Assembly (NCBI GenBank): GCA_963575745.1
Contig: CAUYUJ010000103.1
Span: 496,001-560,000, forward strand
From: Prorocentrum cordatum
Taxonomy: Eukaryota
Length of the DNA: 64,000 bases
Reading direction: 5' to 3'
Positions 2,501-62,030 of this stretch are shown here, in pieces (the first letter of the stretch is position 1; each line of letters opens with the position of its first letter). The notes beneath the pieces were generated by a model, which did not search any database, was not told the origin of the DNA, and worked only from the letters and a program-made list of their open reading frames with translations. Both the position numbers and the translations under genes were made by a program.

Positions 2501-3449
2501 CTATTCTCGGCCCCTGGGGGCCGTCGCCGGGCTCTGGGCCGTCGGAAAACGACTCGGGATGGACAGACGGCCTCGGGGGAAGGGTCGAGACCTCTGGGGG
2601 TCCTCGTTGTGAAGATACCTCTGCGTCGGGGGCCTGAGGTCCGATATCAAGGTTGGCTGGCCCGATCCGATTCGATTTCGTTCGACATTCCCACGATCCG
2701 ATTCGGCCCGATGTTTGCACGGGGAATCCTGGCGCGACTCGTCCGGTTCGATTCTGGTTCCGTGCCGATGCGGCCCGATCCGCGCGTTCCGACCCGACGC
2801 TGGCGCCCCTGGCAGGCCGAGCTGAGGGCCGAGGATCGCGGGCGGGAAAGAGTTCCCCCCCCCTCCTCCTCCTCCTCCTCCCCTCCTCCTCCTCCTCCTC
2901 CTCCTCCTCCTCCTCCTCCTCCTCCTCCTCCTCCTCCTCCTCCTCCTCCTCCTCCTCCTCCTCCTCCTCCTCCTTTTCTAGGGATACGGGGCGCCTCTGC
3001 TGCGACCCCACGGATGCAGGGCGGCTCTGCGCGACTGTCCTGAGCGAAGCGCATCCGTGCGGATCGCGTATCCATGCAGTCATGCAGGCCTCTCCATCGC
3101 GCCGTCGGCGTGCAGGGGATCGGGCTCCAAATCGAGTCGCATCGCCGATGCATCGGCGTTGCGGCGCGATCCTCCGACCCCATCCAATTCGGGCCCCATC
3201 TGGGGGGCCTCAACTCCATGGGGTCGCGCCTCGGTGCAAATCCAGGCGATGGACATGGATAAACCCAGACGTACTCCGTCATGATTTTTTGTTTGTTGTT
3301 GCACACTGGCTCCCCAGAGGTCTGGACCCCTGCTCAGGGACTGGCTCTTCGTCCTGAGTTGTTTTTCTGACGGTCCCGGGGCCTCGTGATGGCCCCCAGA
3401 GGTCGAAACATGCCAGAACCCTTCGTGGTGTCTCTTGTTTCGGGAGCCT

Positions 3450-3660
3450 TGAAACGGGGGTCAATGCAAACGGGGGTCAGCCAGAGCGCCCGATCTTGCA
3501 GGATCCTGCAGGGCCAAGGTCGCACTGACCAGGGTCTGGGCGCAGGATCCTGCAGCATCTTGCAGGATCCTTCGCGTTGACCCGGGTTTGGGTGCAGGAT
3601 CCTGCAGGATCTTGCAGGATTCTGCAAGGCCTGACTGACCCGGGTCTGGATTGGCCTGGT
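3450..3660 (+). repeat. Dispersed repeat with (CT)GCAGGATCCTGCAG palindromes
   Basis: Homologous to about 10008-10180; motif also at 7184, 7412 and 9790. Confidence 0.75.
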
Positions 3661-3699
3661 TCAGCAGATCCCCGATAGTCCACGGCGAGAGTCTAATTA

Positions 3700-4370
3700 G
3701 GCCTCCTAGATGGGATGGGGTCGGAGTAGATGGGGTCGGAGGATCGCGCCGCATCGCCGATGCATCGGCGATGCATCGTCGATGCGGAGCTCGCTGCTCT
3801 CCGCGCCGACGTCGGCGACGCATCGGCGACGTCGGCGACGCATCGCCGATGCATCGTCGATGCACCGTCGATGCGGCGCGAGCCTCCGACCCCATCTGCT
3901 CCGACCCCGTCCAGGAGGCCTCTGGAGAGGATGCCAGGGGGGCCCGCGCCTCGCAGGCACGTTCCTCGCTCCCCGGGAGGAGCTGGCCGAGGCGAAGGTC
4001 CGGGCGGCCGAGCGGGCGCGGCGCGAGGCCGCGGGGGCGGGCGGCGCGCCCGACGGGTCCGGGGGGCGGGCCGCCGCGGAGCCCGGGCGCCACGCCAGGA
4101 GCTCGAAGAAGGGCAGCAGCAGACGTCTTCACAGCGCTGAGGGTCGAGGCCTCCCAGAGGGGGTCGGAGTCGATGGGGTCGAACGATCGCGCCGCATCGC
4201 CGATGCGTTGGCGGTGCGGCTCGAGGTGGGGCCCGCGTTTCGCCACGCCCACGTCGTCGATGCATCGGCGACGTCGCCAGTGCATCGCTGATGCATCGCC
4301 GATGCATGGGCGATGCATTGGCGATGCGGTGTGATCCTTCGACCCCATCTACTCGGATCCCATCTAGGAT
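3700..4370. repeat. Two foldback units built from CATCGCCGATG palindromes
   Basis: AGATGGGGTCGGAGG...CCTCCGACCCCATCT arms around the perfect palindrome GCATCGCCGATGCATCGGCGATGC; related copies near 3130, 5925, 10240, 19020 and 50290. Confidence 0.75.
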
Positions 4371-7395: not shown

Positions 7396-9566
7396 GTCCA
7401 CCGCCGAATCTTGCAGGATCCTGCAACCCTTAACCACCCGGGTCTGGATTGACCCGGGTCAGTAGATCCCCGCTGGAGGCCGAGATCGAGGAGCCACGCC
7501 CGGATGGAAAGGATTTGAAACACACAAATTCCCTGAGGTCCGGGGAGGTTGTCTCCGCATTGGTTCGTTACTTCGGGGGTGTCCAGGAGAGGGGTGGTGA
7601 CCAGGGGGATTGGATATCATGGAGGTGGCCATGGCATCCCCCCAGATATCTTGGCCCCCTCGTCTTCTTTTGGGACGCACCTTGGTCCCCCCTCGGCTTC
7701 GCAGAAGCGCTGGGCCATGTTTTGTGACCCCCCCTCTTGGGAGACTGTTTTTTTGTGTATCTTTCGGCGCGTAACGGTCGTTACCCTGGCCAACCCCTCC
7801 CTCCCTCCGGGGTCACGGTAACGATCGGACGGTGGGGGGGAGGCTGGACCCCCCCCCACATGCTGGTGCCCGCGCGCATGCCATGGCGATCGCATGGCCC
7901 CCGCGCGCTGCCCCCGGGCCTTTTGGATCCACCCCAGGTAACGACCGCTGCCAGAATTTGTAGCACACTGCAACTGCGGGTAAGAATGACGGGGCGGGCG
8001 CGGGTGGTTCGGGGAGTGGGATGCGGGTGGGTCGCCGGGGGGTCGCAGGGAGGAGGACAACGAATGCAGCAGCAGCAAGCAGCGATCGGCAAACAAGCAG
8101 AGTCCAGACCTCGGGATCCCACTTCACCCACGCACCCGGGGATGGCGTACGCTTGGCGTTGCAAAGCTAACCTGCGATGTGGCGCCACCGGCCAGCTTGT
8201 TACACGCTACCCCTTACCTGGAGGAAGGCAGGGGGATAGCGTGCACCGACGAGACCCTCGCAGGGGGATATTGTGCGCACAAGGGGCCCTCGCGGGAGGA
8301 TCGTCTCACAGGTATATCATGCTTTTTGGAGATCGATGTTGCACGATATCTTTGCAACGCCAGCCGTAAGACCGTTTGGCCCCCTCGCTTTGGTTCGGAA
8401 AAACATAATCTTGGTGCTGGATGCCGCAGTTACGTTGCCTGCCGGAGCAGCGGCGCTCGGCGAAGCTGATCTGATCCTCGACCCCGTCCTCTTCCCTCCT
8501 CTCTCCTCCTCCTCCTCCTCCTCCTCCTGTTCCTCCTCCTCCTCCTCCTCCTCCTCCTCCTCCTCCTCCTCCTCCTCTATCTCTTCCTACGCTTCCTTCT
8601 TCTCCTCCCTCTCTTCTTCCTCCTCCTCCTCTTCCGCCTCTTCCTCTGTTGTTTTTCCTCCTCCTCCTTCTCTTCCTCCTCCTCCTCCTATTCCGCCTCC
8701 TTCTCGCCCCCTCTTGGATCTTCCCGAGTTGTTGTTTTTGTGCCCGCTCCGCTGCGCGCCCGCCACGCGAGGAGGTGCACGCCTCCTCGCCCCCGCTGCA
8801 CGCCGTGCCGCTCTCCCAGGACGCGGCCCTGCCGCCGGGGGCGCCCAGGAAGAGCGCGTCGGACCCGGAGGCGGTGCGGCGGCCGGGGGAGGAGGAGGAG
8901 GAGATCTTCGGGACCCAGAACCGTCCTCTTTCGGGGGTGGACAGAACCCCCAACAGTGACACGTCGATTAGTGAATTGTCCGTTTTCGGTTCTCGAGAGT
9001 GCGCCGCGGCCGTCATTTTCCAGGCTTGCGCCCGCCAGGTTTGGGCCTCAGGTCGTTTTCACTAAACCACGTTTTACTAAAGGGAGGTCTGTCCATCCCC
9101 GACTCTTGGCTCTCCTGAGCGACCCACGATGGCCTCCCTCGTCCTTTTGCTGCCTCTTTCTGGCTCTGGTCGCGGTCTCTGGCACTGGCCCTCTCTTGGA
9201 GCTCTCGATCCTGGTCGGGGCCCTCGCCCGGGCGCTGCCCGTCCTGGGGACCATCTCGCCGGGGTCGTTGTCAGGCGATCGCAAGCATGGATCAAGGGGG
9301 CGTGGATTAGCGAGGGGGCCCGTTTCCATGGGACGCCGCAGACTTCCGCCGCCGAGCGAGGCGGCACTGGCCGCATTATGGGGAGGGCACCTCCCCCGAT
9401 CCATGGATTTTTGCGACCGCGCGCCAAATCAAAGGATCGCTAATCCATGTTTGCGCGCCCCCGACGTTGCGCACGACTGCCTCGTGAGAGGCGCCTTTCT
9501 TCTTGCTCGGCGGCGTCGCGCGGCCGTTCTGCTGAGACGCTGCGGGCGCATCGGCGCCCCCACAGC

Positions 9567-9707
9567 TTTACGTCGGGCATGTCCCTCTACAGGACGAATA
9601 TTCAAAAATAGTCAAAATATAATATGGGGACGTTTTGTGTTTTTGACTGTTTTGGACTATTTCGGGGTATTTAGTTCGACTATTGTAGGGGGACATGCCC
9701 GAACCTA
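9567..9707. mobile_element. MITE family 1 copy
   Basis: TIR GTCGGGCATGTCCCTCTACA / TGTAGGGGGACATGCCCGA; TSD CCCACAGC at 9559-9566 and 9708-9715. Confidence 0.75.
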
Positions 9708-10404
9708 CCCACAGCTTGGCAAGGAAAGACATCTTCGGGGCTCAAGAGATGGGGGTCGAAGCAGGCGTGGGTCAGCCAGAGCGCCAGATCTTGCAGGACC
9801 CTGCAGGGACAGGGATGCATTGAGACCCGGGAGGAGGAGACCTTCCAGGCTCAAGATCATTTTGAACACGACTGGCTGTCCGCGCTGCCGCGGTCGTTGT
9901 TCACTGAAGACAAAAAACCGCCTGCCCAACAGCGGCCGCTGTCGGTTTTGGACTTGTTGGGCATTGTACCCTGTTTCCCCGCACCCATTTCGGGCGTCCA
10001 AACAAGAGACGGGGGTCAATGCAAACGGGGGTCAGTCAGAGCGCCGGATCTTGCAGGAGCCTGCAGAGCCAGGGTTGCATGGACCCCGGGTTCGGGTGCA
10101 GGATCCTGCAGGGTCCTGCAGGACCTTTTAGTATCTTGCAAAGCCTGACTGACCCAGGTCCGGACTGACCCAGGTCAGTAGAACCCCTAGATCTGGGGAG
10201 AGACACGGTTGCTGTTGGAGCCCGATGCTCTCCACGGCGGCGTCGCCGATGCATCGCCGACGCCACTGGTGCATCGGCGAGGCATCGACGATGCGGGCCT
10301 CGGGACACGGCCGGGCGGGCACAGTTTGCAGCCGGCTGGAGGGCGGGGTGGTCCAGCACAGGTTCCGGCCAGCAGGAAGGGGCTGCGAGGTCCGAGGTGA
10401 TTGT

Positions 10405-22114: not shown

Positions 22115-25010
22115 GGTCTTGAGCGGATGGGTGTTGGTTTCAATTTTCTGATCGTTCTCGCAGCCGTCCTGTTCTTACCGATCGCGCGCCGAGCATACAT
22201 TTTCTGGCAGCACGAGCCGCGACGGCCCGAGGTCTCTCGGCAGTAAGGCGAGGCGGCTTGTGGAGCACAGCTGGGTGGCACTTACATCCACGTTACCCGC
22301 GGGGGCGTTCAAGCAATCGCGCTTCGCGCGTCGCGGTCTGGGCCAGAGCGGTGAGCCTTCTCCAAGAGGGCGGCGCTAGGGAGCCAAGCTCATCGCACAT
22401 CGCTGGGCGCGATGTGCGAAGTTAGGCGACCCAGTTGAACGCGATCAAATGAGACTGAACGGTGCCGTTTGAACGATCCGGTCAAGACGCATCACATTTG
22501 ATGTTGACCGTTTTCTCATTCAGATGTGCGTGAACCGGTTCCTCCTCTGAGGATCCTTCGTGCGGCTCTTTTCCTTCTTTTGTGATTCATATTGGTATCG
22601 TGTGCCGAGTGAGCTGTCCAGCAGGGAAGCCGAAGACGTTCAGTGGAATACCCTAGAATGGCGGGATCCGTTGATGCGGCCACATTCCCTTCTCATCCTG
22701 CTCCTCCCTGCTCATCCTGTGTCTTTGGGTGTTGGGACCGTGCCACAAGAGACTCCTCAATCTGACGGACATGGGTAGCCCTGAGTCTGCAGAGGAAGAG
22801 GTGGATGAGGGTCGCGCCAGGATCCTTCCATCATGTCGCCGCCCCCGACGGCCACAAGCCTGCCTCCCGGGATCATCGACGACCTGGCAAACCGGAAGGA
22901 GCGTTTTCTCTCGGAAGGGTCCGTGTTCCGGCTTTGGTCGAGGACGGCGGACGAGGAAGAAGGAGGGGGAATGGTGGAAGAAGGGAAGAAGACGGAAGAA
23001 GGAGGAACGAAGGAGGAACGAAGGAGGAACGAAGGAGGAACGAAGGAGTGTGAGGAAGAAGGAGGAAGAACGAGGAAGGAAGGAGGAAGGATGAGGAAAA
23101 TAGAGGGGAAGAGGAACGACGAAGTGTGAGTGTGGCAGTGGGGGAAGGGGGAGGAAGGTGGAGGGAGGAGGGTTGAGGGCAGAGGGAATGATGGAACACA
23201 GCATGCAGAGAGGCAGGGAGGAGGGAGGAGGGAGGAGGGAAGGAAAGCAGGGAGGGAGGAGCCGAGGAGGGAGCAGGGAGCAGGGAGGAGGGAGGAGGAG
23301 GACGACGACGGGAGGCGGGGAGCCAGCCTGCCAAGCTGGAGGCTGCTCCCGAGCCAGCTCGCATCAGGCCTGCGGCCGAGAGGCGTCTTGCACAGGGCGG
23401 CGTGCACTGGGGCCAGGGCCGCCTGCCGCGCCCACCTTCTGTGGGTGTCAGGCATCTCCTCCTCCTCCTCCTCCTCCTCCTCGTCCTCCTCCTCCTCCTC
23501 CTTCCCCTCCTCCTCCTCCTCCTCCTCCTCCTCCTCCTCCTCCTCCTCCTCCTCCTTCTTCCCCTTCCCCTCCTCCTTCTTCCCCTCCCCCTCCTCCTCC
23601 TCCTCCTCCTCCTCCTCCTCGTCCTCCTCCTCCTCCTCCTATTCCTCCTCCTCCTCCTCCTCCTCCTCCTCCCCAGGCAGTGTACAGTGGAGGCCCGTGC
23701 CGAGAAACACCCTGCTTTTGCTTCCAGGGCGCTCTGGGTTCTTGGGCTTCGATGGTCTTTTCCCGAGTAGCTAGTAGAGAGCCAAGGGGGCCTCAGATTA
23801 AGAAGCCGGCGCCGCAGGGTAGCCCCAGAGGTCGTTCTGGCTTCCGTGAAAGATCCCTGGAGAAGGCTGTCCGAGCCAGAAGCGTGTCCCGAGAGATGCT
23901 TCCTAAGCTTTTCCCAGCACGCGTGCCCGGAAGCTCCCCAGAAGGTCCTTTGGAAGCTCTCTCCAGGTCCTTCCAGAGTACTTCGACGGGCCTTTCCACG
24001 CCCCCTCGGGCGGTCTGCTACCCGGGTTTTGGGGCCTCGCAGCTTGCGATGGAGAGCGTGGCCTTCCCACACCGAGTGATCAGTGGACGTCCTGGGGCCT
24101 CAGGGTTGGGTTTCTTGTGGGCGGTCTCTTGTGGACTGGCCTCCGCTGTGCGCTCGGGAACTTGGCGCGTCGCTCGGCCGGTCTGGGCCCACGACGCTGC
24201 GGCGCGGCACGCTATCCACTTTCGAGTCCGCAGGCGTCCGCGTCCAGAGCCCTTCCCGAGCCTCCCGCCCCGCGGAGCGGAGCGACACGGGATCCGCTCA
24301 CAGGTCGAGTCGGAGGTCGACTGCAGAATTGACGCACCCCGAAGTTCAGAGCGTCGTCGAGCCTGCGAAGCACGCGTGCGTGGGCTGTGCGCGGATCCAC
24401 GGCATTCTGCGGACCCGTTTTCTGCAGATTCGGTGGGGCAGCACTGCTGTTGGGGCAGGTCAGTTCTGCAGCCGATCCCCCGCTCGAGCAGGGGGCAGCG
24501 TTAGGGGGCCACATGCGAACCCTACCCCATACCTTCCACGATTTCTCCTCGGCCTCCTTCTCCTCCTCCTCCTCCTCCTCCTCCTCCTCCTCCTCCTCCT
24601 CCTCCTCCTCCCCCTTCTCCTCCTCCTCCTCCTCCTCCTCCTCCTCCTCCTCCTCCTCCTCCTCCCTCCGTGGACCCTTTTAGGGGGCCACAAGCGAACC
24701 TTACCCCATACCTCCCACGATTTCTGAGGGGGAGGGCGGGGTTCACTTCGCTCGGGAGCTCCCGAACGAAGGGAACCCCACCCTCCCCCTCAGAAATCGT
24801 AGGGGGTAGGGGTAGGGTTCGCATCTGGCTCCCCAGCAGCCGATCCACCTGCTCGAGCAGGGGGCAGCGCGTCGCCGGGGCCGCCGCCGCGGCCCGCCGT
24901 GCAGAGGTTCCCGGCCGCGCGGGCGTGCCAGAGAGGGCTCCGCCCTCGGCACGCCTGAGGGCCGGCAGGCGGGCGGAGAGGGAGGCCGAAGCGAGAGTTG
25001 GGCTGGGCCT

Positions 25011-25455
25011 CCCTGACTCCGGATCCGCCCTACGGTAGGTTCGCGTCGTGTCGACCAGCGGCGACCCCAGCGCGGGCGTTCAAGGTTGAACGCCGCCGGC
25101 GACCCAGAATCGATCGATGTTGAACGATCGGACGTTGCGGCAGCGGCCGATCGTTCAAGGTTGAACGATCACCGCTGTGTCACAAACCATTGCCAGGGTC
25201 GTCACGACACGAACCTGCCCTACTCTGGCTTTTTTTCCAGCTTAAAATTGCGTCGGAAATCCACAAGAGGCCGAAAAAGTAGGGCGGGGATTTCTGCACC
25301 CAGCATACAATAGGGCGAACATCCACATGAGTAGGGCGGAAATGACGAAAGAAAAGTAGGGCGGAAATTGGCATCAGCGGGGCTTGAAAAGTAAGGCGGA
25401 AATTCCAAGCCCTACTTACGAATTTCCCCAAAGTAGGGCGGATCCGGAGTCAGGG
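25011..25455. mobile_element. Non-autonomous DNA transposon, 445 bp, perfect 23-bp TIRs, flanked by 24-bp direct repeats
   Basis: CCCTGACTCCGGATCCGCCCTAC (25011-25033) and its exact reverse complement (25433-25455). Flanks 24987-25010 and 25456-25479 match 22/24. Subterminal GTAGGGCGG repeats at the right end. Confidence 0.85.
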
Positions 25456-25466
25456 CGAAGCGAGAG

Positions 25467-25631
25467 TCAGGCTGGGCCTGTCCCTCTGCGGGGGGGAAGA
25501 TTCAGAAATACCCCCACAAAAAATAGCCGGGGGACGATTATTTGGCCTTTCTGTGGCCATGTTGGAGTTTGTTTTGAGCATTCGTTAGTTTTCGTCGAAG
25601 GCCCGCCTGTAGGGGAGCATGCCCGACTTGA
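25467..25631. mobile_element. MITE family 1 copy whose left TIR was the target of the 445-bp element
   Basis: GGGCCTGTCCCTCTGC...CTGTAGGGGAGCATGCCCGACTTGA. Confidence 0.65.
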
Positions 25632-26602
25632 CCGAGGTGAGAGATGAGGCGGCTCCGCCGGCGGGGGGTTGGCGGGAAGGGGCGGAAGTGAAGGCGAGGC
25701 TCGAGGAAGAAAAGACCACACAGACGTGAATGTTTGGCGCTTCGCGCGGAGTTCTTGGATCGGCGCTGGGCCCTCCTGGCGGCGCCTCCGGCGCCGCCCC
25801 TGGCGCGCTCCGCGCGCCAGGGAGGGTGATCCAGCGCAGATCCAAGAAATCCGCGCGGAGCGCCAACAGTTTATGTTTGTGGCGTTTTTTTTTCTAGAGA
25901 CGCCACTTTTTCTGGCAAACGTAAGACTCGAGTACGCCGGGACTCGGGTTTGCCGGCGCGTTTTGGCCAGCGCGTCCCAGATTTTGACGGTCCAGTTTTC
26001 GTGGGATGTTTGCGGGAGCTCGCGTCAACTTTCAGATTGGGTCTCATCATTTTCATGATGGCCCCGTCAGGCCAACCCGAGTCCCCCGAACCCGAGTCTT
26101 ACGTATCCCAGACCTTTCTGGATCTGGCTTCTGGAGTCTGCCAGGTGCTTTTCTCCCCTTTCTCTTCCCCATCCCCACATTCTCCCTCCTCATCCTCGTC
26201 CTCCATCTCCCTGTCCTGGGCCTTGCCAAGGCTTCGAGGCCTCCAGTACAGAGGCCTAGAAATGCAGACCTCCATCACGGTATGAAGATTGTTGTTCAAC
26301 CAGTGTGAAAGTTTGTGGAGGCTCGGGAGACTTCTAGAGGCCCAGAAGGGATGTAGGGAGGATGGTAATGTGCATGGGGGGACAAGGATTAAGAGGATTG
26401 TGGAAAGATGGGGCAACATCCACGCACGGGGATTTCACATTCAGGAGACTCATGGTGCACAAGTGCACGGCCGTGTCGCCAAGTGCAATCACCGCGAAAC
26501 AGAGGAACGCCAGCGCGACGCCTGGGCAACGGCGATCCGCCATCCGAGCAATGCCACGTCAGCAGCACAGCTCAAGTCACAGACTGCGGACCTGGAGGGG
26601 AA

Positions 26603-26744
26603 ACCTGTCCCCCTACAGGCGAATTTTGGAGGGAAAATAATCCAACAAAATTCAAAATCGTCAAAAATCAAATCAAACATCGTCCCTAGACTATTTTTAA
26701 CTATTTTTGAATATTCCTCCTGTAGAGGGACAGGCCCGACTTAA
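26603..26744. mobile_element. MITE family 1 copy, left tip missing
   Basis: CCTGTCCCCCTACAGG...CCTGTAGAGGGACAGGCCCGACTTAA. Confidence 0.6.
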
Positions 26745-33920: not shown

Positions 33921-34056
33921 AATGATTATCTTTGGATGCAGTTTTCCTCCGCGTCGAGCGGCCAAGCGAGAGGGGCTTCTCCCCTTCCGTCTTCTCTTCT
34001 GCTCTGCTCTCCTGCTGCTGCTCTCCCCTCTCGCGGCCATTCTGGTTTCAAGGCTT
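33921..34056 (+). repeat. Split direct repeat A1 (136 bp)
   Basis: AATGATTATCTTTGGATGCAG...TTTCAAGGCTT; one C/T mismatch to A2 by eye. Confidence 0.95.
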
Positions 34057-34078
34057 GCATGGGCCAGCGTCGCGCCGG

Positions 34079-34753
34079 ATGCCCCTTCCCCTCGCGGCCC
34101 TCGGGCAGTGGGGCGCGGCGCTGGTTTCAGTCTGGGCCAGCCGCTGCCCCGCCTGCCCGGCCTGCCCGCCCTGTGGGTCGGTCAACGTCACCTGCGGCAA
34201 CTGCCCGGCGGCGCCTGCGGTGGCGTGCCCAGCAGTGCCCGACCCTCGGCCCTGCCCCGAGCTGTCCTGCCCGGCCCCCGCTCCGGCCGCGCTGGACTGG
34301 GCCTCGTGGCTGGGGCTGGGTTGGGTCCTGGGCGTGCTGTGCGCTGTGGCGGCGCTGGCGGTCTGCGCGCCCGTCGCAGCCCTACTGCACGGGTTCACCG
34401 CGCGGGCGCCGGCGCGCCCAGCAGGCGACGGCGGAGCTGGGGGCAGGGCCGAGACCCTGGACATCGTCGAGAGCCAGGTCTGCATCGCCTTCGACGACGA
34501 CCCGAACTTCAGGTGGCACCGCCGAGTGCTACTGGTCCCCTCGCCCACGCCTGGGCACTGGGTGGCCGCGACACCCGACGCCGAGATCTACCTCTTGAAG
34601 CTGGACGAGCACCTGGTGGTCGCCCTTCCGCGGGCGGCCGCGTTCCCGCAGAGAGTCCGAGGCCAGGTCTACGCGTTCGGGGCCCTCTCGGACGCCGACC
34701 TGGCCAACCTCCGCCGCGACGGGCGCAACTTCGCGAAGGTGCTGGGCTTTCCC
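34079..34753 (+). CDS. ORF1 N-terminal part: Cys-rich and transmembrane segment followed by the Gag-like N-terminal domain
   Basis: ATG at 34079 in the 33932 frame. MPLPLAALGQWGAALVSVWA (hydrophobic), CPACPACPPC...CPELSC (9 Cys, NVT sequon), WASWLGLGWVLGVLCAVAALAVCAPVAALL (TM-like), then globular-looking TLDIVESQVCIAFDDDPNFRWHRRVLLV...FAKVLGF. Protein-like sequence moves to the +1 frame at TTTCCCCATC (about 34748-34757). Gag assignment is by position. Confidence 0.6.
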
Positions 34754-34754
34754 C

Positions 34755-35615
34755 ATCCCCGCGGTGCAGGCGGGGGTCGACGTCCCGAGGTGGATCGTCT
34801 CCGACCCCGCGATCGACCACTTCGGGGAGGAGGTGAGCCTGGAGCCGATCACCTCGGCCGAGCGCTTCATCGGGCGGGACGCGGTGGCGCTCGTGATGCT
34901 GTCCGACGCCGAGGGCTGGGTCGCCGCCGAGAACGTCCAGCTCAGCGACGAGCCAGACTGGAAGGCGGAGAAGAGGGCCGGTCCTGGCAGGGACCGCCGC
35001 GTGCTGCCGCAGACGGGCGTGCCCGCTCAGACCGTCTCTCTAGCGCAGCTGGTGGCTCTGCTGAAGAGCGTGGACGTGGGCGACTGGCCCTTCGAGGGGC
35101 CCAAGGCCCTGGTCGAGTTATTAGCCGCGGTGGTCTCGTCTGGGCACTCGCTCTCGTCCTGCTGGGGCTTCTGGGTGGCCCAGTCGGGGGTCTCGCGCGC
35201 CAGCGCCGTCGCCCAGGAGCTGAAGAACATCGTGGAGGTCTTGCACCATGCGCTGGTCTTCGACGCGCTGGACGTCTCGAACCTCGCCTCGCTCGAGCTC
35301 CTGAGTCGCCGGGGCCTCCAGATCCAGAGGGCGGTCAAGCGCTGCCCGCGCCGCCCGCCCTTCGAGGTGCTGGAGTTGATGGTGTCGAGCCGCCTCGACG
35401 ACTCAGGCGGAGCCGTCACGACCAATTTCGACGCGTGGGTCGCCGACCAGCAGAAGGCGAGGAGCACCGTCCTCAAGCAGGAGAGGATGTACAGGGAGGA
35501 GGCCGACCACGAGGACAAGACGTACCGCCACGAGCAGAGGGACGAGGCAAGGCCCCCGCGCCCCAAGGCCAAGCCGAAGGGCAAGGCCGGGGCTGGGCCG
35601 GCCGGTGCTGGATAG
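34755..35615 (+). CDS. ORF1 C-terminal part (Gag-like), +1 frame relative to the N-terminal part
   Basis: Track ORF 34764..35615 has protein-like composition (DWPFEGP, WGFWVAQSGV, FDALDVSNLASLELLSRR) and a basic tail (KAKPKGKAG); it lies upstream of pol. Confidence 0.7.
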   Translation: MPAVQAGVDVPRWIVSDPAIDHFGEEVSLEPITSAERFIGRDAVALVMLSDAEGWVAAENVQLSDEPDWKAEKRAGPGRDRRVLPQTGVPAQTVSLAQLVALLKSVDVGDWPFEGPKALVELLAAVVSSGHSLSSCWGFWVAQSGVSRASAVAQELKNIVEVLHHALVFDALDVSNLASLELLSRRGLQIQRAVKRCPRRPPFEVLELMVSSRLDDSGGAVTTNFDAWVADQQKARSTVLKQERMYREEADHEDKTYRHEQRDEARPPRPKAKPKGKAGAGPAGAG

Positions 35616-35686
35616 CAAGCCGGGGGCCTCCGCGCCCCCCTCGGCCGCGGCGCCACCTGCCGCGGCCGTCGGCACACCGCGTCGCC

Positions 35687-38600
35687 ATGGCCACCACCTT
35701 GGACCGCGGCTGCCTCCCCGTCGAGGGTTCCTCCTCGCGGGGGCCCCCACCCTTGTTCCCGCTTCCGGTCACGGACGCCTTCTACTCGCATCCACCGCGA
35801 GGGGAACGTACCGCTTTGCCTCGGTATAAAGCGCAGCGTGCTGCCGCTGCTGATCGTCGCTCGGCCCGTGCCATCGAGACGATCACGACCCTCAATGGGA
35901 TGGCCGCCGCCTGCGCTGGGAGGGAAGGCGCGCTTCGGCCCCCTCAGAGGACTGGGAGCGCCGACATCGCCCAAGAGTCGGCGCTCAGGCGCATCCGCCG
36001 TCGGATCGCGGCCTTCGGTGATCGGCCCGCCGACTTGGATGGCGCTGGAGCCCTTCAGGAGCTCCTCAAGTCCAGGGGCGTCTACGGCGGCCTCGACGCT
36101 TCCACGACTGTGGTCGATTTTGATCCGAGCCGCCTCGACATCCTGCGCAAGGGGCATTTTTCAACGCCACTCGACGACGTGGCCCCTCAGAGCGTCATGG
36201 ATGTGATGGACAATTTTGACACTGCCGTCGCCCGCCCGCTCTCCGAGCTGCCAGAGGACGAGCCGCTGGTGCAGCCGTACTGGGGCCCGCAGCTCGACCC
36301 GCGCCGGCGCGGCACGCGCCCCGCGCTTGTGGCCTTTCTTCGCGCGCTGGCTCTCCGAGGGCTCGTGGGAGCTCGGGCCCGTCGGAAGGCGTGCATCTCC
36401 GCGTTCTTCGTGCGAAAGAAGAACGGTGATCAGAGGATGGTGCTGGATGCCCGGCAGGCCAACCAGTTGCAGCGCCTCCCGCCCAAGACCGCGCTGGCCT
36501 CAGGAGAGGCGCTCGCGGCGATCAACCTCGTGGACGCCACCGACCTCGGCCCCGACGACCTCGACATCGTGGCGACCGGGGGCGACTTGGTGGCCGGCTC
36601 GGTGGACCTGCAGGACGGCTTCTACCAGTTCCGCCACCCGGCCTGGGGCTCCTGGATGCGCTTCGACATCGAGATGGACGCCGGCGAGCTGGGGGCGACC
36701 CAGCTTTACGACGAGGAGCTCGGCCGCTACATCGACATCAGCCTGGACTCCCGAGTCTGGCCCTGCTTCGAGGCCCTTCCCATGGGATGGTCATGGGCCT
36801 TGTGGATCTGCCAGGAGGTCCTGATCGACGCCATGGGCGCCGTCTTCGGGGACAAGGACTCCTGGTGCCTGGACAAGGGCAAGCCGCCCTCCTTACTGAA
36901 TGGGGGGGTTGCCCATGCGCCCTACGTCGATAACGCGAACCTCATCTCCTTGGACGCCGGCCAGCTCGACCAGCGCCTCGGCGCCGTGACGGGCGAGCTG
37001 GACAAGAGGGGGCTCCGCTGGCACGAGCTGCAGCATGCCACCTCGTCGCAGGGCATCCGCGGTCTCGAGTTCGATGGCCGACACGGGCGCCTTCGCCACA
37101 CATCGCGGCGAGCCTGGCGCCTGTGCCTTGGCCTACACGAGGTCCTACGCAGGCCCAGGCTTGCCCGCTGGCAGGTCAGGAGGTTGCTGGGACACATCGT
37201 GCACTATTTCAGCATGATGCGGCCCGCCCTCAGCGCGCTGGGCGAGTGCTACGCCTACCTCGAGTCGGGCCCTATGGAGGGCGTCTCCCGCTTGCCGTCC
37301 AGCGTGCTGACGGAGCTTCGCTGCGCTGCTGGCCTCGTGTTCCTCGGCCAGGTGGACCTGCGCCGACCTCCTGCGCCGGTGTCCTTCACCACGGACAGCT
37401 CGACGCTGGGGCGCGCCGTCTGCGAGGCCGAGCTCTTCGGGGACGAGGTCCTCGGCGTGTCGCGGTGGCGCGAGAGGCAGCGCTTCAGCGAGGTCGAGGT
37501 CTCCGGCGACCCCGACAGGGACGCCTACCTAGGCCGCGCCGCGGGGCTGGCCGACGTCTCCGACCTGTACTACGATGAGCTCGGCGACGCCAGCGCGGGA
37601 CGCCCCCGCCGGCAGGCGCGGGCCCGCCGCCGTCGCCAGGAGATGGAGGTGGGCCGCCCCCCGCCTCCGCTCCCGCCCGAGCTGGTCGACCCGCAGCGGT
37701 GGACCGAGGCCTTCCGAGGCGCGTGGCGCCACCCCGGCCGCATCCACAGCCTGGAGGCTCGCGCCTCGGTGATCGGGCTGGGCGCGGCCGCGCGCCAGGC
37801 CAACTGCAGTGGGACCGAGCTGCAGAGCCTCTCGGACAACCTCTCCAGCGTGCTGTCGTTCGAGAAGGGCCGCGCCAGTAATCGGGAGCTCCTCGCCCAA
37901 TGTCGTCGGGCCGGCGCCTTGCAGCTGGGCACCGAGATCACGTGGCGAGTGCGACACGTTCCAGGATGTGTGAACGTTGCTGACTGGGGGGGCCGGGCCG
38001 CAGATCGCCGCGAGCTCCTGCCTGGCTGGATCCGCGGGGTCGGCTTCAGGGCCTGCCCGCCGGCGCCCAGCAGGTGCGCTCCCGTCGCGAGGCCCAGCGG
38101 CAGCCCGCCAGGTCCCGGGCCTGAGGAGCCCGGGCCCCCCATCGCCAGCGTTGCCTTCGCGACTCGGCCGTCCCCGAGCCGCGTCTCCGAGCCTCCAGGG
38201 CTTGGGGGGAAACATATTGGTTGCACGGGACAGTGGAGCGAGGACCTCGCACAAGGGATCATCCTCTCTACCACCCCAGCTGAGTCTGTTCTCCCATCCT
38301 GTCCTTCCCCTCCTCCATCATGCTCCACTTCATCGAGACCACGTACAGGTTATTGTTCACAGATTGGGTCGTCGCGCTCTTCGTCGGGTTACTGGCCTCA
38401 TATTGGGTCTCCAACTGCATCGGCTCATCAGCGACCCCAGGCTGGGCCCCCAGCTTCTTCGGCTTCTTGGGCGTCACGGGACAGGCCACCAACATCATCA
38501 TCGAGTCAAGGTCCCCAGGCTGGGTCATCAAGCTCTTCGGCTCCTCCTCGGGCGCGCAGCGGGCCTCGTAAGTGGTGCTCCTCGGGGTCTTCGTCTACGG

Positions 38601-39442
38601 CCCCGCGGGGCCAGCAGTCTAGCCGCGCCAGCTTCCTGGAGCTATTTGCTGGAGGTGCAAACCTATATGGGGCCTTCCGCGAGGCCTGTTTTCGCATTGC
38701 CTGCCCTCTGGACATTGCAAACGGCAAGCATCATGACCTCGCGCATCCTGGAGTCCGTAACGCTGTCTTGGCTTGGATTACTCAGCGCCGTTTCTGGTGC
38801 ATACATTTTGGCCTTCCGTGTGCCCACTGGGTGCCGGCTGGGGGCAACCGACCTCCACGCCCGGCAGACCTCGCTCTCGTCAGCTTCGCCGTGCGGGTGC
38901 TCAAGCTCTGCAGGAAGCTCAACATCTTCGTTCTCCTCGAGAACCCTGGCCCCAGCCGGGTCTGGCGCTGGGCGCCCCTGGAGAGGGAGCTCCGCTACCA
39001 CAGGCCCGGCAGGGTCGAGTGCGACTCCTGCCGCTTCGGGGCGCCCTTCAAGAAGCCAGGAGCGGTCGCCGGCGCGTTGCCGAACCTGGAGCTGCTGGGC
39101 CGGCGGACTATCTTGGCGGGCGCGTACCTCCCCGAGTGGTGCCGAGAGCTCGCGCGCATCGCCTCGCTCTCCGCCCCGAGGTCCGCCTATGGCCGAGCCA
39201 CGCCCAGAGACCTCGCGACTTGGGATGGCGTCCTGGCAGCCGCGTCGGGCGAGGTCCGCCTCCGTGCCCCCGGCCTCCCGCTCTGCCCGCGGAGGTTCAG
39301 GCCCCCTTGGCGAGCCGCCTGGGCCTCCGCGCTCGACCCGCGCCCCCGCCCCCCGGGCGGCGGGCGGGCCTCGCAGCGCCGCCCCGCCCCCAGGCGGAGG
39401 CCAAGCGCGGGGCCGTCGGGCGCTGGCGGCCGAGCGCCGTAG
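35687..39442 (+). CDS. Pol polyprotein: reverse transcriptase, RNase H and C5 DNA methyltransferase-like domain (about 1251 aa)
   Basis: ATG in GCCATGG context at 35687. RT motifs FFVRKKNGDQRMVLDAR, DLQDGFYQ (36605), LPMGWSW (36776), YVDN (36923). RNase H motifs TDSS, IHSLEAR, SDN, NVAD (about 37390-37995). MTase motifs FLELFAGG (38633), GLPC (38810-38821), ENP (38939), DSCRFG, AGAY. Confidence 0.9.
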   Translation: MATTLDRGCLPVEGSSSRGPPPLFPLPVTDAFYSHPPRGERTALPRYKAQRAAAADRRSARAIETITTLNGMAAACAGREGALRPPQRTGSADIAQESALRRIRRRIAAFGDRPADLDGAGALQELLKSRGVYGGLDASTTVVDFDPSRLDILRKGHFSTPLDDVAPQSVMDVMDNFDTAVARPLSELPEDEPLVQPYWGPQLDPRRRGTRPALVAFLRALALRGLVGARARRKACISAFFVRKKNGDQRMVLDARQANQLQRLPPKTALASGEALAAINLVDATDLGPDDLDIVATGGDLVAGSVDLQDGFYQFRHPAWGSWMRFDIEMDAGELGATQLYDEELGRYIDISLDSRVWPCFEALPMGWSWALWICQEVLIDAMGAVFGDKDSWCLDKGKPPSLLNGGVAHAPYVDNANLISLDAGQLDQRLGAVTGELDKRGLRWHELQHATSSQGIRGLEFDGRHGRLRHTSRRAWRLCLGLHEVLRRPRLARWQVRRLLGHIVHYFSMMRPALSALGECYAYLESGPMEGVSRLPSSVLTELRCAAGLVFLGQVDLRRPPAPVSFTTDSSTLGRAVCEAELFGDEVLGVSRWRERQRFSEVEVSGDPDRDAYLGRAAGLADVSDLYYDELGDASAGRPRRQARARRRRQEMEVGRPPPPLPPELVDPQRWTEAFRGAWRHPGRIHSLEARASVIGLGAAARQANCSGTELQSLSDNLSSVLSFEKGRASNRELLAQCRRAGALQLGTEITWRVRHVPGCVNVADWGGRAADRRELLPGWIRGVGFRACPPAPSRCAPVARPSGSPPGPGPEEPGPPIASVAFATRPSPSRVSEPPGLGGKHIGCTGQWSEDLAQGIILSTTPAESVLPSCPSPPPSCSTSSRPRTGYCSQIGSSRSSSGYWPHIGSPTASAHQRPQAGPPASSASWASRDRPPTSSSSQGPQAGSSSSSAPPRARSGPRKWCSSGSSSTAPRGQQSSRASFLELFAGGANLYGAFREACFRIACPLDIANGKHHDLAHPGVRNAVLAWITQRRFWCIHFGLPCAHWVPAGGNRPPRPADLALVSFAVRVLKLCRKLNIFVLLENPGPSRVWRWAPLERELRYHRPGRVECDSCRFGAPFKKPGAVAGALPNLELLGRRTILAGAYLPEWCRELARIASLSAPRSAYGRATPRDLATWDGVLAAASGEVRLRAPGLPLCPRRFRPPWRAAWASALDPRPRPPGGGRASQRRPAPRRRPSAGPSGAGGRAP

Positions 39443-59029: not shown

Positions 59030-61470
59030 TTGTCCCTGCTATATTGTAGTGTTGGGTCCTCGTTTTGAAGAGAAAGCGCCCTGCGTCCCTCCACTCCTCC
59101 TCTCCTCTCCTCTCCTCTCCTCTCTTCCTTCCTCCCCCCTCCTCCGCAGTTCGCATGCGGTTCCCTCACCCAGTACACAGCTTCGTGGCCCTATGCGGGG
59201 CTCCACCGAAGGTCCCAGTGGCGCAGCCCGCATGCTTCTCCTACACCCAGTACAGCGCTCCGTGGTCCCATAGGGAGCTCCACCTTAGGTCCCAGTGAAG
59301 CACCCTGCAGGCGTCCCCACACCATGTACGGCGCATCGTGGCCCCATCGGGAGCTCCACCTACGGCCACAGTGGCGCAGCGCAGCCCGCATGCGTCTCCC
59401 ACGCCCAGTTCAACGCTCCGTAGCCCCATAAGGGGGCCCCACCTAAGGTCCCAGTGGCGCCGCCCGCCTGCGTCTCCCACACCCAGTTCAACGTTCCGTG
59501 GTCCCATGGGGAGCTCCACCGAAGGCCCCAGTGGCGCAGCCCACATGCGTCCCCCACACCAAGTACAGCGTTTCGTGGCCTCATAGGGGGCTCCACCTAA
59601 GGTCCCAATTACGCAGCCCGCATGCGCCCCCCACACCCAGTACAGCGTTGCGTGGCCCCATAAGGGGCTCCACCTAAGGTCCCAGTGGCACAGCGTCCCC
59701 CCACCCAGTACAGCGCTTCATGGCCCCAAGGGAGCCCCACCGAGGGTCCCAATGAAGCAGCCCGCGTGCGTCCCCCCCGCCCAGTAGAGCGCACCGTGGC
59801 CCCATAGGGAACTCCACCTTCAGTCCCAGTGAGGCAGCCCGCATGCGTCCCCCACACCGAGTACAGCGCTTCGTGGCCCCATCGGGGGTTCCATCGAAGG
59901 TTCCAGTGGCGCAGCCCGCATGAGTCTCCCACACCCAGTACAGCGTGCCGTGGCCCCATAGGGGACCCCACCGAAATTCCCAATGGCGCAGCCCGCATGC
60001 GTCCCCTCACACCCGGTACGGCGCATCGTGGCCACATAGGGGGCTCCACCTGAGGTCCCAGTGACGCAGCCCGCCTGCGTCTCCCACACCCAGCTCAACG
60101 CTCCGTGGCCACATCGGGAGCTTCACAGAAGGTCCCAGTGGCGCAGCCCGCATGCGTCTCCTACACCAAGTACAGCGCCTCGTGGACTCATAGGGAGCTC
60201 CATATACGGCCCCAGTTAGGCAGCCCGCACGCGTCCCCCACACCAAGTACAGTGCTTCGTGCCCCATAGGGAGCTCCACCGAAGGTTCCAGTGGCGCAGC
60301 CCGCATGCGTCTCCCACGCCCAGCACAGCGTTTCGTGGCCCCACAGGGGGCTTCACCGGAGGCACCAGTGAATCAGCCCGAATGCGTCCCCCAGACCGTG
60401 CAGCGCTTCGGGGCATAGGGAGCTCCACCGACTGCCCCAGGGGCGCAGCCCGCACGCGCCTCCCACACCAAGTACAGCGTTTCGTGGCCCATGGGGGGCT
60501 CCATCTAAGGTCCCAGTGGCGCAGCCCGCATGCGTCTCCCACACACAATTGAACGCTCCGTGGCCCTACAAGGGGGCTCCACCGAAGGTCCCAGCGGCGC
60601 AGTCCGCATGCGTCCCCCCTCCCAGTACAACGCTTCGTGGCCACATTGGGAGTTCCACCGGAAGTCCTAATTGCGCAGCCCGCATGCGTCCCCTCAGCCA
60701 GTACGGCGTATCGCGGCCCCATGGGGAGCCCCACCTAAGGTCCCAGTGGCGTAACCCGCATGCGTCCCCCTCACTCAGTACAGCGGTCCGTGGCCCTACA
60801 AGGGGGGCTCCACCGAAGGTCCCAGTGGCGCAGCCCACATGTACAACGTTTCGCGGCCTTATAGGGAACTCCACCGAAGGTCCCAGTGGCGCAGCTCGCA
60901 TGCGTCTCCCACACGAAGTACAGCGTTTCGCGGCCCCGGGGGGGGGGCACCCGTTGTCCCAGTGTTGCAGCCCGCATGCGTCCCCACATCCACTACAGCC
61001 TTCATGGCCACATGGGGAGCTCCACCGAAGGCCCCAATGAAGCAGCCCGCATGCGTGTCCCCAGAGGGAGCTCCACCTGAGCCCCCAATGAAGCAGCCCG
61101 CATGCGTCTCCCAAACCCAGGTGAACGCTCCGTGTGGCCCTACAAGGGAGCTCCACCGACTGTCCCAGGGGCGCAGCCCGCATGCTTCTGCCACACCAAG
61201 TTCAGTGCTTCGTGGCCCATAGGGAGCTCCAGATGAGGTCCCAGTGGCGCAGCCCGCATGCGTTTCCCCCACCCGATAGCACGTTGCGTGGCCCTACAAG
61301 GGGGCTCCACCGACGGTCCCAGTGGCGCAGTCCGCATGCGTCTCCTCCACCCAGCACAGCGTCTCGTGGCCCTACAAATGGGGCTCTACCGAAGACGGGA
61401 CCTACACTTGCGGCATTCACAACTGCATACGGTTAGGTCCTTCGCCAGGCTAATTTTTTCAAGGGGGGGA
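59030..61470 (-). repeat. Approximately 80-bp satellite array (59140-61400) related to the 90-bp satellite, opposite strand
   Basis: Shared core TTCGTGGCCCCATAGGGAGCTCCACCGAAGG and shared end sequences. Confidence 0.88.
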
Positions 61471-61471
61471 T

Positions 61472-62030
61472 AGGTCTAAGGTTAGGGTGGAGGGGATTTG
61501 GGTGAGGGTTAGAGGGTTAGGTTTAGGTTTAAGGGAGAAGGATTAGTGTTAGGGTTCGAATTCGGGCTAGGGGGGTAGGGTTCAGGTGGTAGGGTTAGGG
61601 TTCGGATGTTAGGGTCAGTGTCATGGGGTTTCGGGTTAGGGCGGTAGGGTTAGGAGTAGGGTGTTAGGGTAGGGGTTAGGGGTAGGGGTGAGGATTAGGG
61701 GGGTCGGGCAAGGGTAAGGGTTAGGGTTCAGCGGTTATGGTTCGGGTTGGGGGGGTAGGGGGTAGGGGGGTCAGGGTTAGGATGGTAGGATTTGGGTTCG
61801 GGTTCGGTCAAGGTTAGGGTTAGGGGGCTAGGGTTTGGGTGTTAGGGTTAGGGATGGGGAGTCAGGGGGTTCAGGTTAGGATCGTAGGTTTAGGGTTAGG
61901 GTTAGGGTGAGGGTTATAGGGGGTTTAAGGGTTAGGGGTTAGGGGTTAGAGCTTAGGGTTACGGTTAGAGTTCGGTATTGGATTAGGGTGAGGGTGAAGG
62001 GGTGAGGGTAAGGATAAAGGTAAGGGTCAA
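61472..62030 (+). repeat. Second block of the degenerate (TTAGGG)n tract
   Basis: Same motif and orientation as 57650-59020. Confidence 0.85.

What the first reader, a model, noticed from the sequence alone, without database searches (positions are those of the whole stretch)
24987..25479. TIR transposon with an apparent 24-bp target-site duplication
Seen: perfect 23-bp TIRs abutted exactly on both sides by CGAAGCGAGAGT(TG/CA)GGCTGGGCCT. The duplicated sequence includes part of another MITE's TIR, so it is target-derived. Established: most eukaryotic DNA transposons make 2-11 bp TSDs; TSDs near 25 bp are rare (reported for IS481EU, whose termini differ from these CCC..GGG ends). Inference: a non-autonomous member of an unusual or undescribed superfamily.
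Basis: partly seen in the sequence, partly recalled or inferred. Interest (0 to 1): 0.7.

Follow-up and report, generated by a model that had tools for sequence, protein, structure and literature searches.

The report
Small transposon with 24-base insertion scar
A small gene-less jumping element in a dinoflagellate-type genome is flanked by an unusually long 24-base copy of its landing site, and a different element 150 bases away has a 35-base one, but whether such long scars are the rule for these families could not be tested.

Summary
Perfect 23-nt inverted ends (25011-25033 / 25433-25455) are abutted on both sides by a 24-nt direct repeat (24987-25010 / 25456-25479) that matches at 22 of 24 positions.

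Contigs of four public runs show that other copies of the element end exactly at 25455 and begin with the same CCC, each with different flanks. The 24-mer is therefore not part of the element.

The repeat comes from the target. Its right copy holds 10 nt of flank and the first 14 nt of a neighbouring TIR element. The TG/CA difference fits two separate decays of one ancestral CpG.

Without it the host element is about 255 nt and non-coding, with six GTAGGGCGG-type subterminal repeats.

A second, unrelated MITE (24501-24833) is flanked by a 35/36-nt direct repeat. This argues against a pure one-off.

No other complete copy could be reached: no genome is held and five collection scans gave 0 hits. 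Target-duplication length across the family and the transposase remain untested. IS481EU membership fails on the termini. The reading is partly supported and of moderate interest.

The parts
24987..25010 (.). Left copy of the 24-nt target-site duplication (TG at positions 13-14)
   Evidence: (family D4). It abuts the left TIR with no gap.
25011..25033 (+). Left terminal inverted repeat of element E (begins CCCTGAC)
   Evidence: (I5). A run X2 contig consensus shows the same TIR start preceded by an unrelated flank (loose end before 25217).
25031..25223 (.). Nested foldback MITE, a later insertion. Its body is about 25033-25220 with TA on both sides; a flanking direct repeat of 2 to 7 nt cannot be fixed more closely.
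   Evidence: summed contig word depth reaches 46,000 (X20). Loose ends at 25031 are heterogeneous. One 197-nt X2 contig spans 25031-25223. X2 contigs join the left TIR directly to 25217, which is the form without the nested MITE. Own TIRs: (N_L against N_R, z 8.9).
25243..25446 (+). Six subterminal direct repeats of a 19-nt unit with core (A)GTAGGGCGGAAAT. The last one is the inner half of the right TIR. They are putative transposase binding sites.
   Evidence: family D2, 6 copies, 68-100% to the reference. GTAGGGCGG occurs 5 times in the window, all inside E.
25433..25455 (-). Right terminal inverted repeat of element E (ends GTCAGGG)
   Evidence: Other copies stop aligning at 25455: loose ends 'behind 25455' in 4 X8 contigs and 1 X2 contig with unlike flanks, and pieces end at 25455/25456 in X2, X1 and X8.
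25456..25479 (.). Right copy of the 24-nt target-site duplication (CA at positions 13-14). It holds 10 nt of flank plus the first 14 nt of the M2 element.
25466..26740 (.). M2, an older 1.27-kb TIR element of a family with termini GTC-GGGCCTGTCCCTCTAC. E inserted across its left end.
   Evidence: I7, I8; 8 matches against 2.04 expected; GTC directly before GGGC in 5 of the 7 other hits.
24969..24986 (.). Upstream arm of an imperfect inverted repeat that pairs with the start of M2. The duplicated 24 nt is roughly its spacer.
   Evidence: the DNA fold of the site rebuilt by slicing gives -17.4 kcal/mol and z -2.4 against mononucleotide shuffles. This is weak; the arm is not found by the stricter palindrome scan.
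24466..24500 (.). Left copy of a 35/36-nt direct repeat flanking the neighbouring MITE F (second long duplication)
   Evidence: (24468-24500 against 24836-24869, 94% over 34, E 5e-8).
24501..24833 (.). MITE F, a foldback element with a duplicated left end and a (CTC)n core. Its TIRs are 24504-24546 / 24792-24833.
   Evidence: D1, D3, I2, I4, I7; TIR alignment score 30. Its right end is very abundant in X20 and X1 (bin 24800-24830).
24834..24869 (.). Right copy of the 35/36-nt direct repeat flanking MITE F. It abuts the right TIR.

Best explanation
Element E (25011-25455) is a non-autonomous cut-and-paste TIR transposon (MITE). Its core is about 255 nt, with 23-nt TIRs and an array of GTAGGGCGG-type subterminal repeats that presumably bind a transposase encoded elsewhere.

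When E integrated, its two ends were joined to the two target strands 24 bp apart. The site straddled the left terminus of an older M2-family element. Filling of the two single-stranded gaps produced the 24-bp target-site duplication. Later, one CpG in the duplicated stretch decayed independently in each copy (C>T on the left, G>A on the right), and an abundant foldback MITE landed at the inner edge of the left TIR.

I infer, but have not shown, that the long stagger is a recurrent property and not a fluke. My guess is a short basic stagger plus whole helical turns, as proposed for IS481EU and IS1202. The reason is that a second, different MITE 150 nt upstream carries a 35/36-nt duplication.

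Shown: the anatomy, the element boundaries, the target origin of the repeat, and the nested insertion.
Inferred: the DDE-type chemistry, action in trans, and recurrence of long duplications.
For: - TIRs and the abutting 24-mers: (0 expected by chance).
- Boundaries from independent copies: 5 contigs (4 in X8, 1 in X2) lose similarity right after 25455 and their flanks are unlike. X2 contigs carry the TIR start CCCTGACTCC preceded by an unrelated flank.
- Target origin: the right 24-mer runs 14 nt into M2, whose family terminus is GTC+GGGCC. GTC stands directly before GGGC in 5 of the 7 other window hits. Both 24-mers share M2's private 5-nt extra (GGGCT), so both descend from this one locus.
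- That family terminus has C-G where the left copy has T-G and the right copy has C-A. Two CpG transitions therefore explain the only two differences.
- Non-coding: stops in all six frames of the core. No Pfam family below gathering-score noise in any of the window's 129 frames of 170 aa or more.
- Recurrence: MITE F at 24501-24833 is flanked by a 35/36-nt repeat with 2 substitutions and 1 indel, abutting its right TIR.
- Precedent for about 24-bp duplications made by DDE enzymes: IS481EU (PMC10045372, passages) and the IS1202 family (bioRxiv 10.1101/2022.12.17.520857, passages).
Against: - Only one complete copy of E was seen, so the duplication length in other copies is unknown.
- A weak counter-hint comes from X2. 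The one right flank starts AAG and the consensus of two left flanks ends AAG. If these belong to one copy, that copy has a 3-nt duplication. However, the two left contigs differ from each other (agreement 0.82) and pairing cannot be shown.
- E and F termini are not significantly alike (score 13, z 1.0, 0.18 of shuffles reach it). A shared transposase is therefore not supported.
- In F a TTA stands between the left repeat and the TIR and has no mirror at the right end, so F's duplication is less clean than E's.
- Earlier unchecked notes on this genome report 3-8-bp duplications for other MITE families. Long duplications are therefore not general there.
- No transposase was found, so the chemistry is assumed.
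Confidence: 0.6

Rival explanations
1. This is a one-off aberrant integration. The E family normally makes a short duplication of a few bp. At this site the two strand transfers happened 24 bp apart by accident, and the long repeat beside MITE F is an unrelated coincidence.
For: Only one complete copy was examined. In X2 one right flank and the left-flank consensus share AAG next to the element. Even in IS481EU-7_TV only 1 of 11 full-length copies has 24 bp (PMC10045372). Other MITE families of this genome are noted with 3-8 bp (unchecked).
Against: Two long, abutting flanking repeats (24 and 35/36 nt) lie within 1 kb, among only 46 TIR pairs scanned in 64 kb. That is hard to get from two independent rare accidents. 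The AAG hint has about a 1 in 64 chance per comparison and the contigs cannot be paired.
Confidence: 0.25
2. This is host-repair capture and not a transposase-set stagger. An excised E copy was ligated into a chromosomal break with long overhangs made by two nicks 24 nt apart. Fill-in of the overhangs created the repeat.
For: This would explain different lengths (24 and 35/36 nt) at two neighbouring sites with elements of unlike termini. Nothing here ties the length to an enzyme.
Against: Both ends of E are complete to the last base, exactly as in other copies, with no filler or erosion. End-joining capture usually leaves such marks (established knowledge, not tested here).
Confidence: 0.08
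3. The 24-mer was already present twice and E inserted exactly between the two copies with no duplication of its own. The two copies could come from a tandem duplication or from two M2-type termini brought together by recombination.
For: M2's terminus here does carry a small local 5-nt duplication, so slippage has happened at this site. The region is packed with repeats.
Against: This needs an insertion at exactly 1 of 24 possible phases and an element that makes no duplication. The first 10 nt of the 24-mer are not part of the M2 family consensus; the other family termini have other flanks. No third copy of the 24-mer exists in the window at 3 or fewer mismatches.
Confidence: 0.04
4. E is a non-autonomous member of the IS481EU superfamily.
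For: A 24-bp duplication falls in the third length class of IS481EU, about 25 bp (PMC10045372).
Against: IS481EU termini are TNT..AYA / TGT..ACA, and E has CCC..GGG, which is conserved in other copies. IS481EU is known only from parabasalids. No transposase was found.
Confidence: 0.03

Closest known systems
IS481EU (eukaryotic IS481-like DNA transposons of parabasalids; Kojima and Bao 2023, PMC10045372, passages read)
   Same: They are TIR elements with non-autonomous derivatives. Their target duplications come in classes of about 4, 15 and 24/25 bp, and single copies with 24 bp are documented.
   Different: Their termini are TNT..AYA / TGT..ACA, against CCC..GGG here. The host group is parabasalids, against a dinoflagellate-type genome here. 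Their transposase is known, and none was found here. Only one E copy was measured.
IS1202 family of bacterial insertion sequences (bioRxiv 10.1101/2022.12.17.520857, passages read)
   Same: They make direct target repeats in three classes about one helical turn apart (5-6, 15-17, 27-28 bp). This shows that DDE enzymes can set staggers of more than two turns.
   Different: They are prokaryotic and autonomous, and the length class is fixed per subgroup. No sequence relation to E was tested, because no transposase is at hand.
piggyBac-like elements
   Same: The termini are 5'-CC..GG-3' (stated in PMC10045372). That piggyBac TIRs begin CCCT is my recollection.
   Different: piggyBac duplicates TTAA (4 bp). 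E's flanks here, and the flanks seen in X2 contigs, hold no TTAA.
Ordinary MITEs and introner-type MITEs of dinoflagellates
   Same: They are short, non-coding, multi-copy TIR elements with subterminal repeats, and they nest within one another.
   Different: Reported duplications are 3-8 nt, against 24 nt here. No evidence was gathered that E is spliced or lies in a gene.

Membership tests
MITE (non-autonomous TIR DNA transposon) | Terminal inverted repeats at both ends | tested here: met
   23 of 23 nt complementary.
MITE (non-autonomous TIR DNA transposon) | No coding capacity for a transposase | tested here: met
   All six frames of the core have stops. The ORFs overlapping E that were scanned match no Pfam family.
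MITE (non-autonomous TIR DNA transposon) | Multiple copies with the same ends and different flanks | tested here: met
   Contigs of 4 of 4 runs laid carry parts of E. Five contigs end at 25455 with unlike flanks. There is no second copy in the window.
MITE (non-autonomous TIR DNA transposon) | Flanking target-site duplication | tested here: met
   A 24-nt repeat, 22 of 24 matching, abuts both TIRs.
IS481EU | Target duplications in discrete classes of about 4, 15 and 25 bp | tested here: inconclusive
   One copy with 24 bp. Other copies could not be measured.
IS481EU | Terminal signature TNT..AYA / TGT..ACA | tested here: not met
   E begins CCCTGA and ends TCAGGG. The same start is seen in X2 contigs. 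The signature is taken from PMC10045372.
IS481EU | DDD/E transposase related to IS481 | not testable with these tools
   No autonomous copy was found. No genome is held and 0 hits came from five collection scans.
piggyBac | CC..GG termini | tested here: met
   CCC...GGG.
piggyBac | TTAA target duplication | tested here: not met
   The flanks are ..GGGCCT and CGAAGC... The X2 flanks ..GGAAAG and AAGCCC.. hold no TTAA either.

The most novel reading that the evidence does not exclude
Some dinoflagellate MITE families (E, and perhaps F) may be moved by an undescribed eukaryotic transposase lineage. Its strand transfers would be spaced by a short basic stagger plus whole helical turns, giving discrete target duplications near 2-3, 13-14, 24-25 and 35-36 bp. 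That would be the behaviour known so far only from IS481EU in parabasalids and IS1202/IS481 in prokaryotes, but with unrelated CCC..GGG termini. The three insertions seen here (2 to 7 nt for the nested MITE, 24 nt, 35/36 nt) fit that series. They are too few to show it.
Probability: 0.3. Interest if true: 0.75.

Novelty: new variant of a known kind. Interest (0 to 1): 0.5.

Why it matters
Target-duplication length is one of the main characters used to classify DNA transposons, because it reflects the geometry of the transposase on its target. Duplications longer than about 11 bp are almost unknown for eukaryotic cut-and-paste elements. In the library searched, '24 bp TSD' occurs only in the IS481EU paper.

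If E and its neighbour F regularly make 24- to 36-bp duplications, dinoflagellates hold a second, independent case of multi-turn staggered integration. Standard transposon finders cap duplications at about 10 bp and would then miss or mis-delimit these families in genomes that are mostly repeats. If this site is instead a one-off, it is a neat but minor curiosity.

Tried and rejected
- Whole-genome search for other copies: no genome is held for this window.
- Earlier notes of this scan by place, by sequence (E and F) and by relatives: nothing. Word look-ups gave only other families with 3-8-bp duplications.
- Second copy in the window: none at 3 or fewer mismatches. The hits of short motifs at 60.5-61.9 kb lie in a satellite and a telomere-like array.
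- Pairing left and right flanks of other copies from the laid contigs: not possible. The output gives only 30-letter consensus ends. Neither an AAG match nor a 6-nt match at offset 18 between X2 flanks can be told from chance.
- Finding other copies through read-through ORFs in protein databases: dropped, because all six frames of E have stops.
- Autonomous partner in the window: no transposase or any other Pfam family reaching its gathering score in 129 of 129 frames of 170 aa or more. Only four sub-threshold low-complexity hits appeared.
- Reading the 24-mer as part of the element: rejected, because other copies have different flanks.
- Palindrome or cruciform target as the cause of long duplications: weak. 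The rebuilt E site folds at z -2.4. A strict inverted-repeat scan covers 63% of F's repeat but 0% of E's, against a window base rate of 10%.
- Relatedness of E and F termini: not significant.
- An unrepaired doubly deaminated CpG resolved by the staggered cut: rejected. For the usual 5'-stagger polarity it predicts CA on the left and TG on the right, the opposite of what is seen (reasoning only).
- Runs found hold only small shares (0.23 or less) of the stretch. No habitat or strain is claimed from them.
Full report
**1. The observation**

The window shows, at the stated coordinates, two perfectly complementary 23-nt arms (25011-25033 and 25433-25455, pair I5). Directly outside them lie two 24-nt stretches in direct orientation (24987-25010 and 25456-25479). 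They differ only at positions 13-14, TG on the left and CA on the right.

With up to three mismatches, neither the arm nor the 24-mer occurs anywhere else in the 64 kb. Dinucleotide-preserving shuffles give none.

**2. What the element is**

No genome is held for this window. Earlier notes of this scan call the genome dinoflagellate-type, and one names Prorocentrum cordatum (unchecked). GC content is about 0.6.

I laid the Logan contigs of four public runs on 24800-25700 at 80% likeness or more. Three things follow.

- **A nested MITE.** Positions about 25031-25223 are a separate and enormously abundant foldback MITE. Summed word depth is up to 46,000 in X20 and 12,000 in X1. Many contigs begin to match at 25031 with unlike sequence before it, and one 197-nt X2 contig covers 25031-25223. 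X2 contigs also show the host element without this insert, with the left TIR running straight on to 25217. The nested MITE is flanked by TA, or by up to a 7-nt repeat; one copy cannot fix the boundary.
- **Independent copies confirm the ends.** Other copies of the host element, which I call E, exist in all four runs and end exactly where the TIR ends. Four X8 contigs and one X2 contig lose similarity right after 25455, and their flanks are unlike each other and unlike the window. On the left, the X2 consensus has the same CCCTGACTCC start after an unrelated flank. The 24-mer is therefore not part of the element.
- **None of the runs is the source.** Nothing in the four runs covers 24924-25016, so none of them contains this very insertion.

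E is non-coding. All six frames of its core have stops. It carries six direct repeats of a 19-nt unit with the core GTAGGGCGGAAAT in its right half, and the last of them is the inner half of the TIR (family D2). GTAGGGCGG occurs five times in the window, all inside E. This is the usual look of transposase binding sites in a MITE.

No transposase, and no other Pfam family reaching its gathering score, was found in any of the 129 frames of 170 aa or more in the window.

**3. Is the 24-mer a target-site duplication?**

Downstream of E lies another TIR element, M2. Its family terminus appears eight times in the window against 2.04 expected. When the eight ends are lined up, GTC stands directly before GGGCC in 5 of the 7 other hits, and three of those have TTAA before it.

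M2 therefore begins at 25466 and ends at 26740. The right 24-mer consists of 10 nt of M2's flank plus M2's first 14 nt. Both 24-mers also share a private 5-nt extra (GGGCT) that the other family ends lack. They are thus two copies of this one locus, not two family members brought together.

The family terminus reads C-G where the left copy has T-G and the right copy has C-A. The only two differences are the two classical products of CpG decay, one in each copy.

Homology between the two sides stops exactly at the TIR ends and at the outer ends of the 24-mers. This is the signature of a duplication made at insertion.

The alternatives are listed as rivals and together get about 0.15:
- a pre-existing tandem copy that was hit exactly at its joint;
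- recombination between two sites;
- capture at a staggered break by host repair.

**4. A second long duplication next door**

While checking the surroundings I found that the foldback MITE F (24501-24833) is flanked by a 35/36-nt direct repeat, 24466-24500 and 24834-24869. F has a duplicated left end, a (CTC)n core, and TIRs 24504-24546 / 24792-24833. The repeat has two substitutions and one indel.

The right copy abuts the right TIR. On the left, a TTA stands between the repeat and the TIR. That TTA belongs to the repeated left-end unit (D3) and has no mirror at this right end, so this case is less clean than E's.

The termini of E and F are not significantly alike (score 13, z 1.0, reached by 0.18 of shuffles).

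Among 46 imperfect TIR pairs in the window, only E has a long ungapped abutting repeat. F was missed there because of its indel, and was found by the repeat-first scan. The other candidates in that scan turned out to be palindromic element ends or dispersed repeats.

Two such cases within 1 kb are unlikely to be two independent accidents. This moves me towards a recurrent cause.

**5. Mechanism**

The best-supported reading is ordinary DDE-type integration with the two strand transfers 24 bp apart, followed by gap filling.

What sets the distance is open. The literature offers a model. In IS481EU the duplications are about 4, 15 and 24/25 bp, even within one family: IS481EU-7_TV has 7 copies with 4 bp, 1 with 5 bp, 2 with 15 bp and 1 with 24 bp among 11 full-length copies. 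In the IS1202 family they are 5-6, 15-17 and 27-28 bp. The IS481EU authors point out that the classes lie about one helical turn apart (PMC10045372, passages; bioRxiv 10.1101/2022.12.17.520857, passages).

The three insertions here have repeats of 2 to 7, 24 and 35/36 nt. They would fit a series with a 2-3-nt base and steps of about 11. That is numerology on three points, and I give it a probability of 0.3.

I tested whether palindromic targets could explain the lengths. The rebuilt E site folds as a hairpin whose loop is most of the duplicated stretch, at -17.4 kcal/mol and z -2.4. A strict inverted-repeat scan covers 63% of F's repeat but none of E's, against a base rate of 10%. I do not rely on this.

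**6. Comparison with known families**

- **IS481EU** shares the 24-bp class but not the termini (TNT..AYA against CCC..GGG). Its transposase could not be looked for, so E is not filed there.
- **piggyBac** shares CC..GG ends but not the TTAA duplication.
- **MITE:** as a member of this general kind, E meets all four features tested.

In the paper library, the phrase '24 bp TSD' occurs only in the IS481EU paper. One search searched six phrasings, found 9 papers, and none of the others concerns DNA transposons. I did not see supplements.

**7. What remains open**

No second complete copy of E or F could be reached. Five collection scans gave no hit, and earlier notes hold no look-alike. The contig output gives only 30-letter end consensuses, so left and right flanks cannot be paired.

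In X2, the single right flank begins AAG and the consensus of two differing left flanks ends AAG. This may hint at a 3-nt duplication in another copy, or it may be chance.

It is still the decisive step and it needs the genome.

**8. Verdict**

The target origin of the repeat is well supported, at about 0.8. The claim of an unusual superfamily is neither shown nor refuted, though the neighbouring 35/36-nt case strengthens it. Interest is 0.5. I class the finding as a new variant of a known kind.

Noticed in passing
window 24466-24869: Foldback MITE F (24501-24833) has a duplicated left end and a (CTC)n core. It is flanked by a 35/36-nt direct repeat (24466-24500 / 24834-24869; 2 substitutions, 1 indel). 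This is a second long target-duplication-like repeat 150 nt from the finding. The repeat contains an 18-nt palindrome around CTCGAG.
   Followed up: partly
window 25031-25223: A very abundant foldback MITE is nested in the left TIR region of E. It is flanked by TA (or by up to a 7-nt repeat). Its ends share a GGTAGG(G)TTCGC motif with F in opposite orientation (fraction of shuffles 0.012-0.018).
   Followed up: partly
window 25466-26740; also 9575-9700, 18767, 42264, 45126: A TIR family has termini GTC-GGGCCTGTCCCTCTAC, preceded by TTAA at three ends. There are 8 hits against 2.04 expected. TTAA may be its target duplication. M2's left end has GAGA in that place.
   Followed up: partly
window 3131-4329: Elements have 25-nt perfect TIRs whose outer flanks are an 18-nt perfect palindrome (TCGCCGATGCATCGGCGA type). 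This mimics an 18-nt target duplication but is really an extension of the TIR. Several such ends stand in tandem.
   Followed up: partly
window 7402-7425, 9782-9805, 10042-10065: A 24-nt word containing the 14-nt palindrome TGCAGGATCCTGCA occurs three times. It is a dispersed repeat, not a target duplication.
   Followed up: no
window 60400-62020: A satellite with a unit of about 75-115 nt (60400-61400) is followed by a degenerate TTAGGG/TTTAGGG-like array (61440-62020). This is an interstitial telomere-like tract.
   Followed up: no
window 33926-39439 (+): An open frame of 1838 aa lies in a stretch of about 0.70 GC and has no Pfam match. It could be a real gene or a composition effect.
   Followed up: no
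window 24834-24917: The sequence into which F inserted is itself repeated in runs X1 and X8 (depth about 300 and 30; loose ends at 24917).
   Followed up: no
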